Positions 3,838 to 49,628 of a DNA stretch of 64,000 bases are shown here, piece after piece. Made by a program: the position numbers and the translations under genes. The stretch covers positions 110,370 through 174,369 of the forward strand of contig JAGXRX010000014.1 in the NCBI GenBank assembly GCA_018335655.1. The letters run 5' to 3'. This DNA comes from Erysipelothrix sp. Lineage in GTDB: Bacteria > Bacillota_I > Bacilli_A > Erysipelotrichales > Erysipelotrichaceae. Position 1 is the first letter of the stretch. Each line of letters starts with the position of its first letter. The notes beneath the pieces are model-generated. The model did not search any database. It had not been told where the DNA came from and saw only the letters and a list, made by a program, of their open reading frames with translations.

Positions 3838-4995
3838 ATGAAAAATTCTTTAATAAAACATAAACTGTGGCGTGGAAAGATTATTACGAAAGTTGTTCCA
3901 CTCCTAAAAACAAAAGAACATTTATCAATTGCATATTCACCCGGTGTTGCTGAGCCAGTTTTAGAAATTGCTAGAGACAAATCATTAGCATATGATTATA
4001 CATGGAAAGGCCATACTATTGCCGTTGTAAGCGATGGTTCGGCCATTTTAGGTTTAGGAAATTTAGGTGCAGAAGCATCACTTCCAGTGATGGAAGGGAA
4101 GGCAGCATTATTTAAAGTCTTTGGTGGAGTCGATGCTATTCCTATCGTGTTAGATACTCAAGATACTGAAGAGATTATCATGATTGTTAAGGCAATAGCA
4201 CCAGGATTTGGTGGTATTAATCTTGAGGATATTTCAGCACCACGATGTGTTGAAATTGAGAGAAGACTACAAGCTGAACTTGATATTCCAGTATTTCATG
4301 ATGATCAACATGGTACCGCAATTGTGGTATGTGCTGCACTCATTAATGGGTGTCGCCTAAGTGGTAAGAAACTAAGTGAACTTAAAGTTGTTGTGAATGG
4401 TGCAGGAGCTGCAGGAAGTTCAATTATTAAAATGATTCATGGATTAGGTGTAAATGATATCCAAGCCTTCAAACGTGATGGTATCATCCATAATAGTAAA
4501 CTTAATAAATATGACTTCTTAACGAAGGAACTATGTGAAGTTGTTAATCCAAATCAGCTATTATTAACATTAGAAGAAGCTTTTGTTGGTGCTGATGTAT
4601 TTATTGGGGTTTCCGTTGCAGATTGTGTTACACAAGCTATGGTTGCTTCAATGAATGATGATGCTATGGTCTTTGCCTTAGCAAACCCAAATCCTGAAAT
4701 ACCGTATGACTTAGCTAAAAAAGCTGGAGCACGTATGGTAGGAACAGGTCGTAGTGACTATCCAAACCAAATCAATAATGTTCTAGCATTCCCAGGACTA
4801 TTCAAAGGTGCATTAAATGTAAGAGCAAAAGCCATCACTGAATCAATGAAGATTGCGGCAGCTCATGGCATTGCATCATGTATAAGTGATGACGAACTCA
4901 ATGATGAGTATCTTGTACCATCTCCTTTTGATCCAAGAGTAGCGATTGCGGTAGCAAGTGCTGTAGAAGATGAAGTTAATAATCAAAAAAAGTAA
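3838..4995 (+). CDS. maeA: NAD(P)-dependent malic enzyme (short bacterial type)
   Basis: 385 aa with conserved malic-enzyme blocks: YSPGVAEP, VVSDGSAILGLGNLG, FGGINLEDI, VFHDDQHGTA, GAGAAG, ANPNPEI. Confidence 0.9.
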   Translation: MKNSLIKHKLWRGKIITKVVPLLKTKEHLSIAYSPGVAEPVLEIARDKSLAYDYTWKGHTIAVVSDGSAILGLGNLGAEASLPVMEGKAALFKVFGGVDAIPIVLDTQDTEEIIMIVKAIAPGFGGINLEDISAPRCVEIERRLQAELDIPVFHDDQHGTAIVVCAALINGCRLSGKKLSELKVVVNGAGAAGSSIIKMIHGLGVNDIQAFKRDGIIHNSKLNKYDFLTKELCEVVNPNQLLLTLEEAFVGADVFIGVSVADCVTQAMVASMNDDAMVFALANPNPEIPYDLAKKAGARMVGTGRSDYPNQINNVLAFPGLFKGALNVRAKAITESMKIAAAHGIASCISDDELNDEYLVPSPFDPRVAIAVASAVEDEVNNQKK

Positions 4996-38840: not shown

Positions 38841-38973
38841 ATGAAGAAATATTCCTTAGTTTTATTTCTAGTTAAACGATTATCCAAAGCTATGATATCT
38901 TGATTAAATTCTAGTAAGTGATATGCTAATGATAGGGAAATTTATAAGCAGTTTGATGTAAAGGGGGAATATT

Positions 38974-39222
38974 ATGGGTGTTATCATTAAATGGTTTGGA
39001 CGTGCTTTGTGGATCATGGGTGTTGGGGGTAGTTTAATCGTTCTTTTTCAGTTTATTCGATACGGTGAAGGAACTACATTATCAGATAAGATTGTCTCTG
39101 CGATTGTATTGGGGTATTTATTTATTGCATTAGGTGAAATAATAATTCTTCTTGAGAAGAATCTTAAGCAAAACCAAGATCTGTATAAGTTATTTGAAAA
39201 TTGGGGAGGGGAAAACCAATAA
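38974..39222 (+). CDS. Small two-TM membrane protein, unknown function
   Basis: 82 aa with two hydrophobic helices and a G-rich RBS (AAGGGGGAA). Confidence 0.55.
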   Translation: MGVIIKWFGRALWIMGVGGSLIVLFQFIRYGEGTTLSDKIVSAIVLGYLFIALGEIIILLEKNLKQNQDLYKLFENWGGENQ

Positions 39223-39329
39223 TGGAAATTTTACTACTTTTAATTGTTATGTTCTTGTTTTCCATTACAGGGCTATTTATCTTAGGATATACATATAGCC
39301 TGGTGATGAAAAAATTATTTCCACGATAA
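39222..39329 (+). CDS. 35-aa hydrophobic peptide (not in the ORF track)
   Basis: MEILLLLIVMFLFSITGLFILGYTYSLVMKKLFPR. The ATG overlaps the preceding stop (TAATG). GGGGAGGGG lies 11 nt upstream, and a terminator follows directly. Confidence 0.45.
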   Translation: MEILLLLIVMFLFSITGLFILGYTYSLVMKKLFPR

Positions 39330-39355
39330 ACAACGAGATTCTCGTTGTTTTTTTA
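39329..39355 (+). terminator. Intrinsic terminator
   Basis: CAACGAG att CTCGTTG stem followed by a T8 run. Confidence 0.8.
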
Positions 39356-45573: not shown

Positions 45574-45725
45574 AAATAGTTTATCTCCTTAACTAAATTA
45601 TACATTATCTACTGAGTAATATGTGAAACAATGCTTTATGTACTCTCAGTATATATTCAACAATATGGAAACTTATTATTTCTTATTTTAAATGTCTTTT
45701 TATGTGTGATTAACCGTTTAACTAT

Positions 45726-45754
45726 TGATTAATCAGCACAAATTGAGTATGATG
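45726..45754 (+). promoter_or_regulatory. Candidate sigma-A promoter driving the C-rich-loop hairpin, copy 1
   Basis: TTGATT (45726-45731), a 17-nt spacer, then TATGAT (45749-45754). The hairpin begins 7 nt later. Confidence 0.55.
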
Positions 45755-45760
45755 ATGTAG

Positions 45761-45812
45761 GATATCCTTGCAACAATACCCCCCACCCACGTTCAAGGTA
45801 TCCCTTTTTTTA
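45761..45812 (+). ncRNA. Candidate small RNA or leader: hairpin with conserved C-rich loop plus U-tract, copy 1
   Basis: GGATA(T)CCTTG - loop CAACAATACCCCCCACCCACGTT - CAAGGTATCC followed by CTTTTTTT. No + strand gene lies upstream for it to terminate. Confidence 0.45.
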
Positions 45813-45868
45813 TGCTCAAAATAATTAAACACATTTCTATCCTTAAAGGAGTTTGATATACTACGCAT

Positions 45869-46894
45869 ATGAAGACAATTCTAATTAAAATAAACACTCA
45901 AAATATTGATGAAACTAAGATTCAACAAGCCAAGCAATTCATTCTTAATCATGAATGTGTTGCTATGCCTACAGAAACGGTTTATGGCTTAGCAGCCAAT
46001 GCTTTTTCACCACAAGCTATTTCACGGATTTTTGAAGCGAAGGGAAGACCAAGCGATAATCCACTCATTGTCCACATAAGTGATGAGGCAATGCTTCTTG
46101 ATTGCATTGATCAAGAAATAACTTTAGAGATTAGAACAATTATGAATGCATTTTGGCCTGGACCATTAACACTTGTCTTTAAGAAAAGTCATCGCATTCC
46201 AGATGTCGTGAGCGCTGGTTTACCAACAGTAGGAATACGTATGCCAAACCATCCTATTGCACTTGCACTAATTAAGGCATCATGTGTTCCACTTGCTGCG
46301 CCAAGTGCAAATATATCAGGAAAACCATCACCTACTAAAGCAAGTCATGTTTATGATGACTTAAATGGTAAGATTGCTGCAATCATTGAGGCTGATCAAA
46401 GTCACATCGGTGTAGAATCAACGGTACTTGATGTTAGTACATCACCTTTTACTGTTTTACGTAAAGGTGGTATCTCAATAGAACAATTGCAAATGATTGA
46501 TGCTGATATAAAGTATGATGATGCATTAGTTAACAATATAAGCACACCTAAATCTCCTGGTCAAAAATATAAACATTATGCACCTTCAAAGCCAATGTTG
46601 TTATTGGAAGGTAGTTTAGAGAATCAACTTGCCTACTTAAAGACAATATCAATGGATGATATCTTACTCATTAGTGTTGATGAAATCATTCAAAATATTA
46701 ACGTGCCACACTATTTTTCATTAGGTTCAAGACATGATTTTGAGAAGGCGATGAATGGTTTATTTGAGATTTTAAGAGAGAGTGAGTTTCTTTCTATTTC
46801 ATCATTAATTGTTACTGCATTTGAAGATTATGGATTAGGGGCAACACTCAATGATCGCTTACGAAAAGCAGCGAGTGAAAAGATTAATTTATAG
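45869..46894 (+). CDS. tsaC: L-threonylcarbamoyladenylate synthase (Sua5/YwlC type, TsaC domain plus Sua5 C-terminal domain)
   Basis: VAMPTETVYGLAANA, KGRP.DNPLIVH and APSAN.SGKPSPT motifs; 341 aa. Confidence 0.88.
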   Translation: MKTILIKINTQNIDETKIQQAKQFILNHECVAMPTETVYGLAANAFSPQAISRIFEAKGRPSDNPLIVHISDEAMLLDCIDQEITLEIRTIMNAFWPGPLTLVFKKSHRIPDVVSAGLPTVGIRMPNHPIALALIKASCVPLAAPSANISGKPSPTKASHVYDDLNGKIAAIIEADQSHIGVESTVLDVSTSPFTVLRKGGISIEQLQMIDADIKYDDALVNNISTPKSPGQKYKHYAPSKPMLLLEGSLENQLAYLKTISMDDILLISVDEIIQNINVPHYFSLGSRHDFEKAMNGLFEILRESEFLSISSLIVTAFEDYGLGATLNDRLRKAASEKINL

Positions 46895-46915
46895 AAGAAA
46901 ATATAGGTAAAACGC

Positions 46916-46944
46916 TTTACAAAATTATTCACCTTTGTTATTAT
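46916..46944 (+). promoter_or_regulatory. Candidate sigma-A promoter driving the C-rich-loop hairpin, copy 2
   Basis: TTTACA (46916-46921), a 17-nt spacer, then TATTAT (46939-46944). The hairpin begins 7 nt later. Confidence 0.55.
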
Positions 46945-46950
46945 TTATTA

Positions 46951-47003
46951 GGATATTCCATGACACTATTCCCCCCCACCCACGTTCATGGATATCCTTT
47001 TTT
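46951..47003 (+). ncRNA. Candidate small RNA or leader: hairpin with conserved C-rich loop plus U-tract, copy 2
   Basis: GGATA(T)TCCATG - loop ACACTATTCCCCCCCACCCACGTT - CATGGATATCC followed by TTTTTT. The architecture, bulged T and loop core match copy 1. Confidence 0.45.
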
Positions 47004-47082
47004 AATTATCTCAAGCACTTTCATTGTAAGGTGCTTGTTTTTTTTCATATACTAGTTTCGTTATAGAACGGGAGGATTAATT

Positions 47083-48777
47083 ATGAGAGAATCTTTATCG
47101 ATTGTTGTATCCGGTGAAGCTGGCCAAGGATTAGCAACAATCGAAGATTTTTTGGTTGAAGCATTATCGAAGGAATACTATGTATTTACATCAAAAGAAG
47201 TAATGAGTCGAGTTCGTGGTGGTAATAATACTTTCGAGTTGAGAGTCGCAACATCACCCATTCATTCACTACGTGAAACGATTGATTATCTATTTTTACT
47301 TAATAACAATTCGTTTTATCGCTTACCTAAACGTTTGTTACCAACAACGGTTGTCTTTGGTGAAGATGCGTTTGTGAGTGCTGAAGAAAAAGAGAAATAC
47401 AGTCTAAAGTATGAAATACTAGCACTAACTAAACTTGCTAAAGAAGCAGGTAGTAGAATTTTTGCGAACACAATTTTATTTGGTTACATTGCGGGGATGT
47501 TAGAACTTAATGTTAAGGTTGCTGAGCATCTTATTTCTAAGCGTTTTATTCATCGTGGTGAGCCAATTGTTGCTGACAATATATCTGCTTTCCATAAAGG
47601 ATATGAACTAGGATTGGCTTATGATGCACCACTAAAACTTAAGAAACCTGTGAGTGTTCCTCCATTCAAAGTTATTGATGGTAATAGTGCTCTAGGAATT
47701 GGACTTCTTGGAGGTGGAATCAATTATCTATCTTCCTATCCAATGTCACCTGGAACATCAGTCATGATGTATCTTATAGATAAAGCAGATGAATTTGGCG
47801 TTCTTGTTGAACAAGCAGAAGATGAGATTGCTGCACTAAATATGGCTCTTGGTGCTTCTTATGCAGGAGCACGTGCTATGGTCACAACTTCTGGTGGTGG
47901 ATTTGCACTTATGACAGAAGCTGTTTCACTTGCAGGGATTATTGAAACCCCAGCAGTCATCCATGTGGCTCAACGTCCAGGACCTGCGACAGGGCTTCCT
48001 ACTCGTACAGAACAAGGTGATTTAAATCTAGTTGTTTATGCAGGTCATGGAGAATTCCCGCGCATTGTGTTAGCACCTGGAAAACTTGAAGATGGGGTAT
48101 TACTTGCTCAAAAAGCATTTTGGTTAGCTGATAAATATCAAGTGCCGGTATTCATTCTTTCTGATCAATACTGGTTAGAATCATTAGGGCAAATGACATC
48201 ATTTGAATTAAGTGACAAATATATGGAATCATTCACTGTGATTTCAGATAAAGACTATAAACGATATCAGTTGACTGATGAAGGTATTTCGCCTCGTGCA
48301 ATTCCAGGATTTGGTGAAGGATTTGTTAAAGTGGATTCTGATGAACATGATGAATCAGGACAAATTACTGAAGACTTTGATGTTAGAATCGCCATGCAAA
48401 ATAAACGTATGCATAAACGTGAACTATTACTTGCTGATTATCAAGACGCAGAACTTATTGGTCCAAAAAACTATAAGAAACTTGTGGTAGGATGGGGATC
48501 AACATATGGTGTGCTTAAAGAATTCATCGAAACTACTTCGATTAATGATGTGGCATATCTCTATGTTAAACAACCTTTCCCACTCCCATTATCATTAAAA
48601 ACTTATTTTGATCAAGCAAATCAAGTCGTAGTCGTAGAGAATAATTTCACTGGTCAATTTGCAAACATTCTTACTTTAGAGTTAGGTGTTACAATCACAC
48701 AACGTGTAAATAAATACAACGGTGAACCATTCTTTATTGAAGAGATGAATAAAAAATTAGGGGAGGTATTAAAATGA
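47083..48777 (+). CDS. korA: 2-oxoacid:ferredoxin oxidoreductase, fused gamma-alpha subunit
   Basis: N-terminal POR gamma-like domain (VVSGEAGQGLAT) followed by the alpha core (SSYPMSPGT, EDEIAALNMALGASYAGARAM). Confidence 0.85.
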   Translation: MRESLSIVVSGEAGQGLATIEDFLVEALSKEYYVFTSKEVMSRVRGGNNTFELRVATSPIHSLRETIDYLFLLNNNSFYRLPKRLLPTTVVFGEDAFVSAEEKEKYSLKYEILALTKLAKEAGSRIFANTILFGYIAGMLELNVKVAEHLISKRFIHRGEPIVADNISAFHKGYELGLAYDAPLKLKKPVSVPPFKVIDGNSALGIGLLGGGINYLSSYPMSPGTSVMMYLIDKADEFGVLVEQAEDEIAALNMALGASYAGARAMVTTSGGGFALMTEAVSLAGIIETPAVIHVAQRPGPATGLPTRTEQGDLNLVVYAGHGEFPRIVLAPGKLEDGVLLAQKAFWLADKYQVPVFILSDQYWLESLGQMTSFELSDKYMESFTVISDKDYKRYQLTDEGISPRAIPGFGEGFVKVDSDEHDESGQITEDFDVRIAMQNKRMHKRELLLADYQDAELIGPKNYKKLVVGWGSTYGVLKEFIETTSINDVAYLYVKQPFPLPLSLKTYFDQANQVVVVENNFTGQFANILTLELGVTITQRVNKYNGEPFFIEEMNKKLGEVLK

Positions 48778-49628
48778 GTAAGTTTGATTTCAAACATGAT
48801 ATTGATATTGCATGGTGTCCAGGGTGTGGAAACTTCCCACTTCGCCAAGCAATTTTAAAAGCTCTTGAAGAATTAAATCTTGATCAAACTCAAGTTGTCT
48901 TTTCTTCAGGAATAGGTCAAGCGGCTAAAATGCCTCAATACATTGATGCTTCATACTTTAATGGACTTCATGGACGTGGATTAGCAGTTGCTCAAGCTAT
49001 TCAATCTGTTAATCCAAAACTTGTGGTTATTGCTGAAGGTGGAGATGGTGACATGTATGGAGAAGGTGGAAACCATTTCTTACATAATGTTCGTCGTAAT
49101 CCTAATTTAGCTCACATTGTACATAACAATATGATTTATGGACTCACAAAAGGTCAAGGTTCTCCAACATCTCCTAAAGGTTTAAAAACAACAACTCAAA
49201 TAAGTGGTGTCTATAATGAACCTTTAAACCCAGTTGCCTTAGCCTTAGCACTTGGAGCTTCATTTGTAGGACGTGCCTTTACAGGGGATGTTGAGAAGAC
49301 AAAAGAAATCATTAAAGCAGCAATTGCTCATGAAGGCTATGCAATTGTGGATATATTCCATCCATGTGTAACTTACAATAAAGTGAATACCTTTGCGTGG
49401 TATAAGAACAATTCATATTGGTTAAACCAAGAGGAACACAATCCTCAAGACTTTGGTGCAGCCATGAACCTTGCGCTTAATCAAGACAAGTTTGCGTTAG
49501 GCATCCTATATCAAAACAAAGAGAAAACACCGTTTCATAAAGCACATCCTTATTACGTGAATGATTCAACACCACTTGTTGATCGACCAAAACGTGATAT
49601 TGCGAAAGTTAATGCTTTATTAAAGTAA
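48774..49628 (+). CDS. korB: 2-oxoacid:ferredoxin oxidoreductase beta subunit (TPP-binding)
   Basis: WCPGCGNF cysteine motif and the GDGD...NN..YG TPP-binding motif. The start overlaps the alpha stop. Confidence 0.88.
   Translation: MSKFDFKHDIDIAWCPGCGNFPLRQAILKALEELNLDQTQVVFSSGIGQAAKMPQYIDASYFNGLHGRGLAVAQAIQSVNPKLVVIAEGGDGDMYGEGGNHFLHNVRRNPNLAHIVHNNMIYGLTKGQGSPTSPKGLKTTTQISGVYNEPLNPVALALALGASFVGRAFTGDVEKTKEIIKAAIAHEGYAIVDIFHPCVTYNKVNTFAWYKNNSYWLNQEEHNPQDFGAAMNLALNQDKFALGILYQNKEKTPFHKAHPYYVNDSTPLVDRPKRDIAKVNALLK

What the first reader, a model, noticed from the sequence alone, without database searches (positions are those of the whole stretch)
45726..47003. Two paralogous promoter-plus-hairpin units with a conserved C-rich loop (CCCCCC(C)ACCCACGTT): candidate tiny sRNAs or leader attenuators
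Copy 1 spans 45726-45812 and copy 2 spans 46916-47003. They share an identical architecture:
- a near-consensus -35 (TTGATT / TTTACA);
- an exactly 17-nt spacer;
- a -10 (TATGAT / TATTAT);
- 6 nt of spacer before the stem;
- a stem beginning GGATA with a single bulged T;
- a 23-24 nt loop containing C6-7 ACCCACGTT;
- the closing arm, then a T6-7 tract.

The stems differ by a compensatory change: CCTTG/CAAGG in copy 1 versus CCATG/CATGG in copy 2. Copy 2 also has one extra T-A pair. That is the pattern expected for a selected RNA structure.

Copy 1 cannot be the terminator of an upstream gene, because the neighbouring gene is divergent. Each copy lies 55-80 nt upstream of a + strand gene (tsaC/sua5, and korA).

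C-rich single-stranded loops are the seed regions of Firmicute sRNAs such as RsaE/RoxS, which pair with G-rich ribosome-binding sites. Unusually G-rich RBS regions do exist in this window (AAGGGGGAA at 38961; GGGGAGGGG at 39203), but I could not derive a convincing extended duplex. I do not recognise this motif as a named RNA family.
Basis: seen in the sequence. Interest (0 to 1): 0.65.

Follow-up and report, generated by a model that had tools for sequence, protein, structure and literature searches.

The report
Tiny C-rich-loop small RNA gene pair
Two copies of a very small, strongly conserved gene for a roughly 50-base hairpin RNA with a cytosine-rich loop flank the sua5 gene of an uncultured groundwater Erysipelotrichia bacterium. 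This is most likely a new family of base-pairing regulatory RNA, but nobody has yet shown that it is transcribed or what it targets.

Summary
Two units of promoter, hairpin and T-tract sit at window 45725-45811 and 46916-47003 on the + strand. They share an exact 17-nt core, CCCCCC(C)ACCCACGTTCA.

Comparative data:
- I found 16 distinct versions of the hairpin in about a dozen lineages of uncultured groundwater/subsurface Erysipelotrichia (KorA 68-94% identical, Sua5 62-77%).
- In every version the core is invariant and the same bulged 12-15 bp hairpin forms.
- A T-tract always follows.
- A -35 box, an exactly 17-nt spacer of variable sequence, a -10 box and 6 nt precede the stem in 17 of 18 versions.
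- Each genome has only 1-2 copies.
- No Rfam family matches, and there are no phage copies.

The downstream genes have their own conserved promoters: kor has TTGAAA/TTGTAA-17/18-TATACT, and sua5 looks leaderless. One lineage keeps the RNA although korAB is gone. A stand-alone small RNA therefore fits better than a leader attenuator.

Covariation is thin, with two fully compensated pairs. No RNA-seq data exist for this organism, and no convincing target was found.

Verdict: probably a new small RNA family of the known "C-rich loop" kind (functional analogues: RsaE/RoxS, 6C, RNAIII hairpin 14). Interest is moderate.

The parts
45708..45727 (+). Conserved near-palindromic block GATTAACCGTTTAACTATTG upstream of and overlapping the -35 of copy 1. 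Possible operator or UP element.
   Evidence: Nearly invariant in 7 species, including L107, which has no divergent gene upstream. Its function is inferred.
45725..45753 (+). Promoter of copy 1: -35 TTGATT, 17-nt spacer, -10 TATGAT.
   Evidence: The boxes and the 17-nt spacing are conserved in orthologues while the spacer sequence varies.
45760..45803 (+). Hairpin of copy 1: 13 bp with two 1-nt bulges and a 16-nt loop AAUACCCCCCACCCAC. The predicted transcription start is at or next to G45760.
   Evidence: covariance-model score 71.9 bits.
45805..45811 (+). T7 tract, the predicted 3' end (intrinsic terminator) of copy 1.
   Evidence: A T-tract is present in every homologue.
45854..45871 (+). 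Separate promoter for sua5: extended -10 TGaTATACT, then 6 nt, then the ATG. This looks like a leaderless mRNA.
   Evidence: The block TTTGATATACTACGC is invariant in 7 species. Leaderless initiation is inferred from the spacing.
45869..46894 (+). sua5/tsaC (threonylcarbamoyl-AMP synthase), flanked by the two RNA copies.
   Evidence: Pfam Sua5_yciO_yrdC plus Sua5_C.
46906..46921 (+). Conserved block GGTAAAACGCTTTACA (inverted repeat GTAAA-N4-TTTAC) that includes the -35 of copy 2.
46916..46944 (+). Promoter of copy 2: -35 TTTACA, 17-nt spacer, TG-extended -10 TATTAT.
46951..46997 (+). Hairpin of copy 2: 14 bp with two bulges and a 17-nt loop UAUUCCCCCCCACCCAC.
   Evidence: covariance-model score 76.4 bits.
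46998..47003 (+). T6 tract of copy 2.
47012..47045 (+). Canonical terminator (10-bp stem, 6-nt loop, T8) directly after copy 2. Its loop carries the -35 of the kor promoter.
   Evidence: It is conserved in the two-copy lineages, with a compensated stem change in L107.
47024..47053 (+). The kor operon's own promoter: TTGTAA, 18 nt, TATACT.
   Evidence: TTGAAA/TTGTAA with a 17-18 nt spacer occurs in most lineages and the -10 TATACT in all.

Best explanation
Each unit is a self-contained gene for a tiny RNA of about 50-55 nt.

A sigma-A-type promoter starts transcription at the first G of the stem. The whole transcript is one bulged hairpin. The same hairpin, with its U-tail, acts as the intrinsic terminator.

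The apical loop displays an invariant C-rich sequence, (A/U)UU-C6-9-ACCCA, next to the invariant 3' strand CGUUCA.

The RNA most likely works in trans. The loop would pair with G-rich stretches of mRNAs, typically Shine-Dalgarno regions, to block translation or trigger decay. This is how the C-rich loops of RsaE/RoxS, 6C and S. aureus RNAIII hairpin 14 work.

The two window copies are paralogues of one ancestral gene that sits just upstream of the kor operon. The duplication goes together with the presence of sua5 between the copies.

Shown here: the conserved promoter architecture, the fold, the T-tract, the invariant core, the low copy number and independence from the downstream genes.

Inferred: transcription, the exact RNA ends, base pairing as the mode of action, and the targets.
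For: - **Distribution.** An exact-motif scan of 185,579 species genomes found real homologues in 9 Erysipelotrichia MAGs, 1-2 per genome and always at this locus. Every other hit was a chance match, all but a few of them in genomes of higher G+C.
- **T-tract.** A metagenome scan that did not require a T-tract or the outer stem still returned only copies with both.
- **Promoter.** All 18 distinct promoter-plus-hairpin sequences have a -35 box, exactly 17 nt of variable spacer and a -10 box. The -10 is followed by 6 nt in 17 of the 18 and by 8 nt in one.
- **Fold.** All 16 distinct hairpins adopt the same fold, -11 to -18 kcal/mol. Within-type RNAalifold gives -13.9 and -13.1 kcal/mol.
- **Selection on the core.** The 17-nt core never changes, while KorA is 68-94% and Sua5 62-77% identical, and coding DNA is 68-85% identical.
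- **Variation at unpaired positions.** The bulged bases (C/T/A), the internal mismatch (U.U, U.C, G.U) and the length of the C-run (6-9) vary freely, as expected for unpaired positions. The variable C-run also rules out a coding sequence.
- **Covariation.** There are compensated U-A to C-G and U-A to A-U changes. Pairing is 82.5% against at most 51% for slid partners. The covariation score is 0.134 against 0.062, with 0 of 500 shuffles reaching it.
- **Independence from neighbours.** The downstream genes have their own conserved promoters. L085 keeps the RNA without korAB, and L098 has another gene inserted between the RNA and kor.
- **Precedent.** C-rich-loop small RNAs that bind mRNAs are documented (PMC6486639 for 6C; PMC5419742 and PMC10433868 for RoxS).
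Against: - No transcript evidence exists. All runs that contain this organism are DNA metagenomes.
- Covariation is thin: only two fully compensated pairs, and none within the 10 single-copy-lineage sequences. RNAalifold on the mixed alignment fails because the 3' arm shifts register between the three types.
- The stems are themselves very conserved, so a constraint at DNA or protein level cannot be excluded.
- A 14-18 nt loop is unusually large for an intrinsic terminator, and the terminator scan did not call these hairpins.
- No statistically convincing target was found in the 64-kb window. The kor 5' UTR is not complementary to the loop.
- In every context the RNA gene sits 15-60 nt upstream of a co-oriented promoter with a TATACT-type -10 (TAGACT in L085). 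This hints at some local coupling that the trans model does not explain.
Confidence: 0.5

Rival explanations
1. The unit is a cis-acting element: a leader, attenuator or insulator. In this reading the upstream promoter is a second promoter for sua5 or kor, and the hairpin plus U-tract is a regulated terminator. Alternatively, the unit insulates or modulates the adjacent downstream promoter. A factor that binds the C-rich loop would decide whether transcription reads through.
For: - In all contexts the unit lies directly upstream of, and co-oriented with, a gene and its promoter with a TATACT-type -10.
- It is syntenic with kor in most lineages.
- The weak stem and large loop would make a leaky terminator that could be regulated.
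Against: - No alternative antiterminator pairing was seen in longer folds.
- The downstream genes have their own conserved promoters.
- sua5 appears leaderless, so a read-through transcript would give it an unusual long leader.
- Copy 2 is followed at once by a strong canonical terminator.
- The unit is retained upstream of unrelated genes in L085 and L098.
- The loop is not complementary to the kor 5' UTR.
Confidence: 0.17
2. The RNA is made as proposed but acts by binding a protein rather than by base pairing. It would be a decoy or sponge for a protein that binds single-stranded C-rich RNA, for example a KH-domain protein of the KhpA/KhpB type.
For: - The loop is absolutely invariant, and so is the adjacent 3' stem strand CGUUCA, even where its 5' partner varies. 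This is stronger conservation than most small RNA seeds show.
- No target was found.
- KhpA/B are major small-RNA-binding proteins in bacteria that lack Hfq or ProQ function (PMC11039985).
Against: - The number of C residues varies from 6 to 9 between species and within populations, which is tolerated less easily by a specific protein pocket.
- No candidate protein gene is linked to the locus.
- Nothing was tested directly.
Confidence: 0.15
3. The element works at the DNA level. It could be a recombination or insertion site, or cruciform-forming repeats that mark the boundaries of the sua5 insertion. It could also be an operator for a DNA-binding protein. In this reading the promoter-like boxes are incidental.
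For: - sua5 is flanked by two direct copies, and lineages with one copy lack sua5 at this locus.
- The locus is rearranged around the element in L085 and L098.
- The outer stem GGATATCC is itself a palindrome.
Against: - The -35 and -10 boxes and the 17-nt spacing are conserved in three diverged promoter types with variable spacer sequence.
- The T-tract is on one strand only and the orientation is fixed.
- The variable C-run changes the spacing inside the putative site.
- There is no recombinase or transposase nearby in the window.
- attC core sites (GTTRRRY at the outer ends) are absent, as the sequence shows directly.
- There are no copies in viral contigs with this architecture.
Confidence: 0.06
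4. These are ordinary terminators or a chance similarity with no function of their own.
For: Copy 2 lies after the sua5 stop codon and could help to terminate sua5.
Against: - Copy 1 follows no co-oriented gene.
- The 17-nt core is identical in about a dozen lineages despite 15-30% divergence of coding DNA.
- The chance expectation for the motif is 0.19 per window.
Confidence: 0.02

Closest known systems
RsaE / RoxS (Rfam RF01820), the small RNA of Bacillales
   Same: - It is a Firmicute small RNA whose unpaired C-rich motifs pair with G-rich ribosome-binding regions.
- It regulates central-metabolism and TCA-cycle genes (PMC5419742, PMC10433868).
- It has its own promoter and terminator.
   Different: - RsaE/RoxS is about 100-115 nt, with several hairpins and several C-rich regions. 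This RNA is one hairpin of about 50 nt.
- There is no match to the Rfam model, even at E <= 10.
- The loop sequence and the host lineage differ.
6C small RNA of Actinobacteria (Rfam RF01066)
   Same: The C-rich sequence is displayed in hairpin loops and binds several mRNAs without a chaperone (PMC6486639).
   Different: - 6C has two C-rich loops and occurs in high-G+C Gram-positives.
- There is no Rfam match here.
- There is no sequence similarity.
Hairpins 7, 13 and 14 of Staphylococcus aureus RNAIII (from my own knowledge of Boisset et al. 2007 and related work)
   Same: A C-rich apical loop, including that of the terminator hairpin H14, makes loop-loop or loop-SD contacts with target mRNAs. 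This is precedent for a terminator loop acting as the seed.
   Different: RNAIII is a 514-nt multifunctional RNA. Here the terminator hairpin is the entire RNA.
Intrinsic (Rho-independent) terminator
   Same: A stem followed directly by a run of 5-9 T.
   Different: - The loop is 14-18 nt, not 3-8 nt.
- The stem is A+U-rich with two bulges.
- The loop sequence is invariant.
- A dedicated promoter lies 6 nt upstream.
- The terminator scan did not call these hairpins.

Membership tests
RsaE/RoxS (RF01820) | Match to the Rfam covariance model | tested here: not met
   No hit at gathering score in the whole window. No hit at E <= 10 in 45600-47150.
RsaE/RoxS (RF01820) | Multi-hairpin RNA of about 100 nt or more with at least two unpaired C-rich motifs | tested here: not met
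   The unit is a single hairpin with one C-rich loop, about 50 nt from the predicted start to the T-tract.
6C (RF01066) | Match to the Rfam model; two hairpins, each with a C-rich loop | tested here: not met
   Only one hairpin is present.
Any Rfam 15 family | Score at or above the family's gathering threshold | tested here: not met
   One search gave 0 matches in 64 kb. One search gave only irrelevant sub-threshold hits (sau-6072 on the neighbouring terminator, mir-317, SCARNA7).
Trans-acting base-pairing small RNA (generic) | Own promoter and own terminator, independent of neighbouring ORFs | tested here: met
   The promoter architecture is conserved. All copies have a T-tract. The neighbouring genes have their own promoters. 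All of this is sequence-level evidence only.
Trans-acting base-pairing small RNA (generic) | A discrete transcript is detected | not testable with these tools
   Only DNA metagenome runs hold this sequence.
Trans-acting base-pairing small RNA (generic) | Conserved complementarity between the seed and target mRNAs | tested here: inconclusive
   The best candidates in the window are the G-rich ribosome-binding sites at 38963 and 39203. One is retained in L097, but each has a central mismatch and looks like a strong ordinary SD. The kor UTR is negative. Whole genomes were not available.
Transcription attenuator / riboswitch leader | Lies in the 5' leader of the regulated gene, with mutually exclusive terminator and antiterminator folds | tested here: not met
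   Independent promoters lie between the T-tract and the start codons. Longer folds show no alternative pairing. A second terminator follows copy 2.
High-copy intergenic repeat (REP / BOX / MITE-like) | Many copies per genome in unrelated intergenic sites | tested here: not met
   The window has 2 copies with the full covariance model and filters off. Each MAG has 1-2 copies on a single contig.
Integron attC site | R''/R' core sites (RYYYAAC ... GTTRRRY) at the outer ends of an imperfect hairpin; an integrase nearby | tested here: not met
   Read directly from the sequence, the outer ends are GGATA.../...TATCC. AAC/GTT sits next to the loop, and GTTCAAG does not fit GTTRRRY. No integrase is among the neighbouring genes.

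The most novel reading that the evidence does not exclude
This would be a minimal one-hairpin riboregulator: the RNA's only structure would serve at once as a 5'-end protector, terminator and seed-presenting loop. It would be kept as a duplicated pair, and its slippage-prone poly-C loop (C6-C9, variable within populations) would tune regulatory strength.

It could act on small hydrophobic-peptide genes with unusually G-rich ribosome-binding sites (window 38974-39331), somewhat like a trans-encoded type I antitoxin. Alternatively, it could titrate a poly-C-binding protein.
Probability: 0.1. Interest if true: 0.6.

Novelty: new member of a known kind. Interest (0 to 1): 0.4.

Why it matters
Nothing is known about RNA regulators in Erysipelotrichia, and this lineage is uncultured.

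If the RNA is real, it would be one of the smallest bacterial regulatory RNAs: a single hairpin whose terminator loop is also the business end. It would come with a clean comparative data set of invariant loop, variable stem details, duplicated copies and conserved promoters.

It would also add an independent example of C-rich loops used against G-rich ribosome-binding sites in Gram-positives. The covariance model built here could be used to annotate groundwater metagenomes.

The practical impact is modest until expression and targets are shown.

Tried and rejected
- **Rfam.** Gathering thresholds on the whole window and E <= 10 on the region found nothing relevant.
- **RNA evidence.** Two searches for sequencing runs and one read lay-down returned only DNA metagenomes from subsurface, groundwater, aquifer, soil and sediment. 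They give no information on transcription.
- **High-copy repeat.** Rejected.
- **Phage or mobile origin.** The two viral-contig matches to the 17-mer lack the hairpin context.
- **Small peptide.** Rejected because the C-run length differs by non-multiples of 3 between copies and species.
- **kor mRNA as a cis-encoded target.** Duplex energies for 14 species are no better than shuffled controls.
- **Wider phylogenetic spread.** kor loci of an Erysipelothrix sp. lineage with different synteny (L109, L115) and of HGW-Firmicutes (L110, L114) have no copy, even with filters off.
- **RNAalifold on the mixed alignment.** It failed to recover the hairpin because the 3' arm shifts register between the three types. 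Within-type alignments recover it.
- **Literature.** Searches for the motif string, Erysipelothrix small RNAs and C-rich-loop small RNAs found no description of this element.
- **Known operators in the small RNA promoters.** I compared the promoters by eye with the Fur, PerR and cre consensus sequences and found no convincing match.
- **16S rRNA.** From memory, the loop is complementary over 8 nt to the 16S rRNA segment ACGUGGGU. I judged this compatible with chance and did not pursue it.
Full report
**1. Observation**

| | Copy 1 | Copy 2 |
|---|---|---|
| -35 | TTGATT, 45725-45730 | TTTACA, 46916-46921 |
| Spacer | 17 nt | 17 nt |
| -10 | TATGAT, 45748-45753 | TATTAT, 46939-46944, preceded by TG |
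| Gap to stem | 6 nt | 6 nt |
| Hairpin | 45760-45803 | 46951-46997 |
| T-tract | T7, 45805-45811 | T6, 46998-47003 |

- The consensus promoter scan picked up both promoters on its own.
- The shared 15-mer CCCCCCACCCACGTT occurs only at these two places, even with three mismatches allowed. Shuffled sequence gives 0.19 matches.
- The hairpins fold at -12.1 kcal/mol (z = -2.9) and -14.5 kcal/mol (z = -4.5).
- One detail needs correcting. AAC/GTT in copy 1 and AC/GT in copy 2 also pair, so the loop is 16-17 nt and ACGTT is partly stem.

**2. Surroundings**

The gene order is:
- a membrane transporter and a HAD hydrolase (+ strand);
- a glutathione peroxidase (- strand, divergent);
- copy 1;
- sua5/tsaC (45869-46894);
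- copy 2;
- a canonical terminator (47012-47037 plus T8);
- korA/korB-like 2-oxoacid:ferredoxin oxidoreductase (47083-49628).

The window has 35.6% G+C. Exact protein look-ups and sequencing-run searches place the organism in subsurface and groundwater metagenomes.

**3. Relatives**

- **Species genomes.** I scanned the 185,579 species genomes for CCCCCACCCACGTT followed by TTTT. This gave 91 stretches. The only ones with a hairpin context come from 9 MAGs labelled Erysipelotrichia, Erysipelotrichaceae or Erysipelothrix. The rest are chance matches, all but a few of them in genomes of higher G+C.
- **Metagenomes.** I scanned metagenome contigs with a pattern that fixed only the loop and the inner 3' strand. 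The true matches are all from low-G+C contigs, and every one has the outer stem and the T-tract.
- **kor loci fetched through KorA homologues.** These added five more loci with the element: L107, L108, L111, L112 and L113. Four loci lack it: L109 and L115 (an Erysipelothrix sp. lineage with different synteny) and L110 and L114 (HGW-Firmicutes).
- **Copies in the window.** A covariance model built from 14 copies finds only the two known copies in the window with all filters off. The next hit scores 18 bits, against 72-76 bits for the real copies.
- **Copy number.** It is 1-2 per genome.

**4. What is conserved**

- **Divergence of the hosts.** The species differ substantially. KorA is 68-94% identical and Sua5 62-77%. 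Coding DNA is 68-85% identical.
- **Invariant core.** Despite this divergence, the core C6-9-ACCCACGTTCA is identical in all 16 distinct hairpins.
- **Common fold.** All 16 fold into the same shape:
  - GGA/UCC at the base;
  - a lower stem with one bulge whose position floats;
  - CC/GG;
  - a middle stem with one bulge or mismatch;
  - an inner AACG/CGUU-type stem;
  - a 14-18 nt C-rich loop.
- **Variable positions.** The positions that vary freely are the ones predicted to be unpaired:
  - the bulged base (C, T or A);
  - the internal mismatch (U.U, U.C, or G.U in L108/L113);
  - the 5' part of the loop;
  - the number of Cs (6 to 9).

  The C-run also varies within one population. That variation excludes a coding sequence.
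- **Promoter footprint.** Upstream, all 18 distinct sequences have a -35 box (TTGnnn, TTTACA or TTAACA), exactly 17 nt of unconserved spacer and a -10 box (TATGAT, TATTAT, TATATT or TACATT), often TG-extended. The -10 box is followed by 6 nt in 17 of the 18 and by 8 nt in one. This is the pattern of a real promoter.
- **Predicted transcript.** It would start at the first G of the stem, so the RNA would be a blunt 5'-paired hairpin with a U-tail, about 50-55 nt long.

**5. Structure statistics**

The evidence here is positive but thin.

- On the model-fitted alignment, 82.5% of cells pair, against at most 51% when partners are slid. The covariation score is 0.134 against 0.062 in shuffles, with 0 of 500 shuffles reaching it.
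- Only two pairs are fully compensated:
  - U-A to C-G in the lower stem of one copy-1 clade;
  - U-A to A-U in the middle stem, between the copy upstream of sua5 and the copies upstream of kor.
- There are also changes to wobble pairs (A-U to G.U, U.U to G.U) and one uncompensated loss, in L106.
- RNAalifold on the mixed alignment fails, because the three types differ by indels in the 3' arm. On single-type alignments it recovers the hairpin, at -13.9 and -13.1 kcal/mol.
- The case for a functional RNA therefore rests mainly on conservation, the promoter and terminator architecture and the fold energy. It does not rest on covariation.

**6. Small RNA or leader?**

Several points argue against a leader or attenuator.

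- **Own promoters downstream.** Between each T-tract and the next start codon lies a separate conserved promoter.
  - For kor it is TTGAAA/TTGTAA in most lineages, 17-18 nt, an invariant TATACT, and a 25-30 nt leader with GGAGG.
  - For sua5 it is TGaTATACT, then 6 nt, then the ATG. The 15-nt block TTTGATATACTACGC is invariant, which suggests a leaderless mRNA.
- **Second terminator.** Copy 2 is followed by a canonical terminator whose loop holds the kor -35 box.
- **Synteny.** The common order is ABC transporters, glyoxalase, HAD hydrolase, a variable divergent gene, the RNA, korAB, aminotransferase.
- **Retention without kor.** L085 has lost korAB but keeps a perfect RNA gene in front of the aminotransferase. 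L098 has a lipoprotein gene between the RNA and kor.
- **No pairing with the kor leader.** The loop is not complementary to it.

One pattern is left unexplained. In every context the RNA gene sits 15-60 nt upstream of a co-oriented promoter with a TATACT-type -10 (TAGACT in L085). Some local coupling therefore cannot be ruled out.

**7. Origin of the pair**

- Lineages with sua5 at this locus have two copies flanking it: the window, L089, L107, L010, L012, L061 and L097.
- L064 and L102 are short contigs that show only the copy upstream of sua5.
- Lineages without sua5 here have a single copy in front of kor: L020, L067, L086, L106, L108, L111, L112 and L113.
- The two promoters differ, so either only the hairpin was duplicated or the flanks have diverged since.

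**8. Mechanism**

The best-supported reading is a trans-acting small RNA whose C-rich loop pairs with G-rich mRNA segments. Precedents are RoxS/RsaE (PMC5419742, PMC10433868), 6C (PMC6486639) and, from my own knowledge, the C-rich terminator hairpin 14 of S. aureus RNAIII.

G5 runs are rare in this genome. There are seven in the 64 kb outside the element itself, and only one lies at a ribosome-binding site: AAAGGGGGAAUAUUAUG at 38961, in front of an 82-aa membrane ORF. It is perfectly complementary to 9 nt of the copy-2 loop.

The next ORF, a 35-aa hydrophobic peptide, is preceded by GGGGAGGGG. L097 has the homologous peptide with GGAGGGGAAG upstream.

Both candidate pairings have a central mismatch or are short, and both sites resemble strong ordinary Shine-Dalgarno sequences. 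I treat them as leads, not as findings.

A protein-binding role is a live alternative, because the 3' stem strand CGUUCA is invariant even where its partner strand varies.

**9. Known families and novelty**

- No Rfam 15 family matches.
- The literature searches found no description of the element.
- It is not a member of RsaE/RoxS or 6C, since the model match and the architecture both fail. It plausibly works like them.
- I rate it as a new member of a known kind: a lineage-restricted small RNA with a C-rich loop.
- It is notable for its extreme compactness and the absolute invariance of its loop.
- Interest is moderate (0.4). The case is clean and testable, but the lineage is narrow and uncultured, and there are no expression or target data.

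Noticed in passing
window 45854-45871; also L010, L012, L061, L064, L089, L107: sua5/tsaC appears to be a leaderless mRNA. An extended -10 (TGaTATACT) is followed by 6 nt and then the ATG. The block TTTGATATACTACGC is invariant in 7 species and there is no consistent Shine-Dalgarno sequence. The aminotransferase gene of L085 looks similar (TTGCAT, 17 nt, TAGACT, 6 nt, ATG).
   Followed up: partly
window 46970-46977 (and 45779-45784): The poly-C tract in the loop ranges from C6 to C9 between species. It is also heterogeneous within one groundwater population: variants with one C more or one C less occur in run X3. Metagenome assemblies tend to break at the hairpins.
   Followed up: partly
window 38974-39222 and 39224-39331; L097 2641-2743: Two adjacent small hydrophobic ORFs (82 aa and 35 aa) have unusually G-rich ribosome-binding sites (AAAGGGGGAA and GGGGAGGGG). 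The 35-aa peptide (MEILLLLIVMFLFSITGLFILGYTYSLVMKKLFPR) is conserved in L097 with GGAGGGGAAG upstream, next to a 416-aa ORF that I take to be a transposase (assigned by eye, not tested). The peptide has the look of a small membrane peptide or a type I toxin.
   Followed up: partly
L110 about 3940-3960 (upstream of korA): A relative without the RNA (HGW-Firmicutes-1 lineage) has a perfect Fur-box palindrome, TGATAATCATTATCA, just upstream of korA. This suggests that kor is iron-regulated there.
   Followed up: no
window 45708-45727 and 46906-46921: Strongly conserved near-palindromic blocks lie upstream of or overlap the -35 boxes of the RNA genes: GATTAANCGTTTAACTATTG and GGTAAAACGCTTTACA. They may be operators for an unknown regulator. 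By eye they do not fit the cre, Fur or PerR consensus.
   Followed up: partly
L085 1-3712, compared with L020, L111 and L112: In one lineage korAB is missing from the otherwise syntenic locus, so the RNA gene directly precedes the aminotransferase gene. In L098 a 123-aa ORF, apparently a lipoprotein (judged from its N-terminus only), is inserted between the RNA and korA. The divergent gene upstream of the RNA also differs between lineages: glutathione peroxidase, an HbpS-like protein, or none.
   Followed up: partly
window 47012-47045: The canonical terminator after copy 2 carries the -35 box of the kor promoter in its loop. Terminator and promoter therefore overlap. Its stem shows a compensated change in L107 (AAGGCAC/GTGCCTT versus CAAGCAC/GTGCTTG).
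   Followed up: partly
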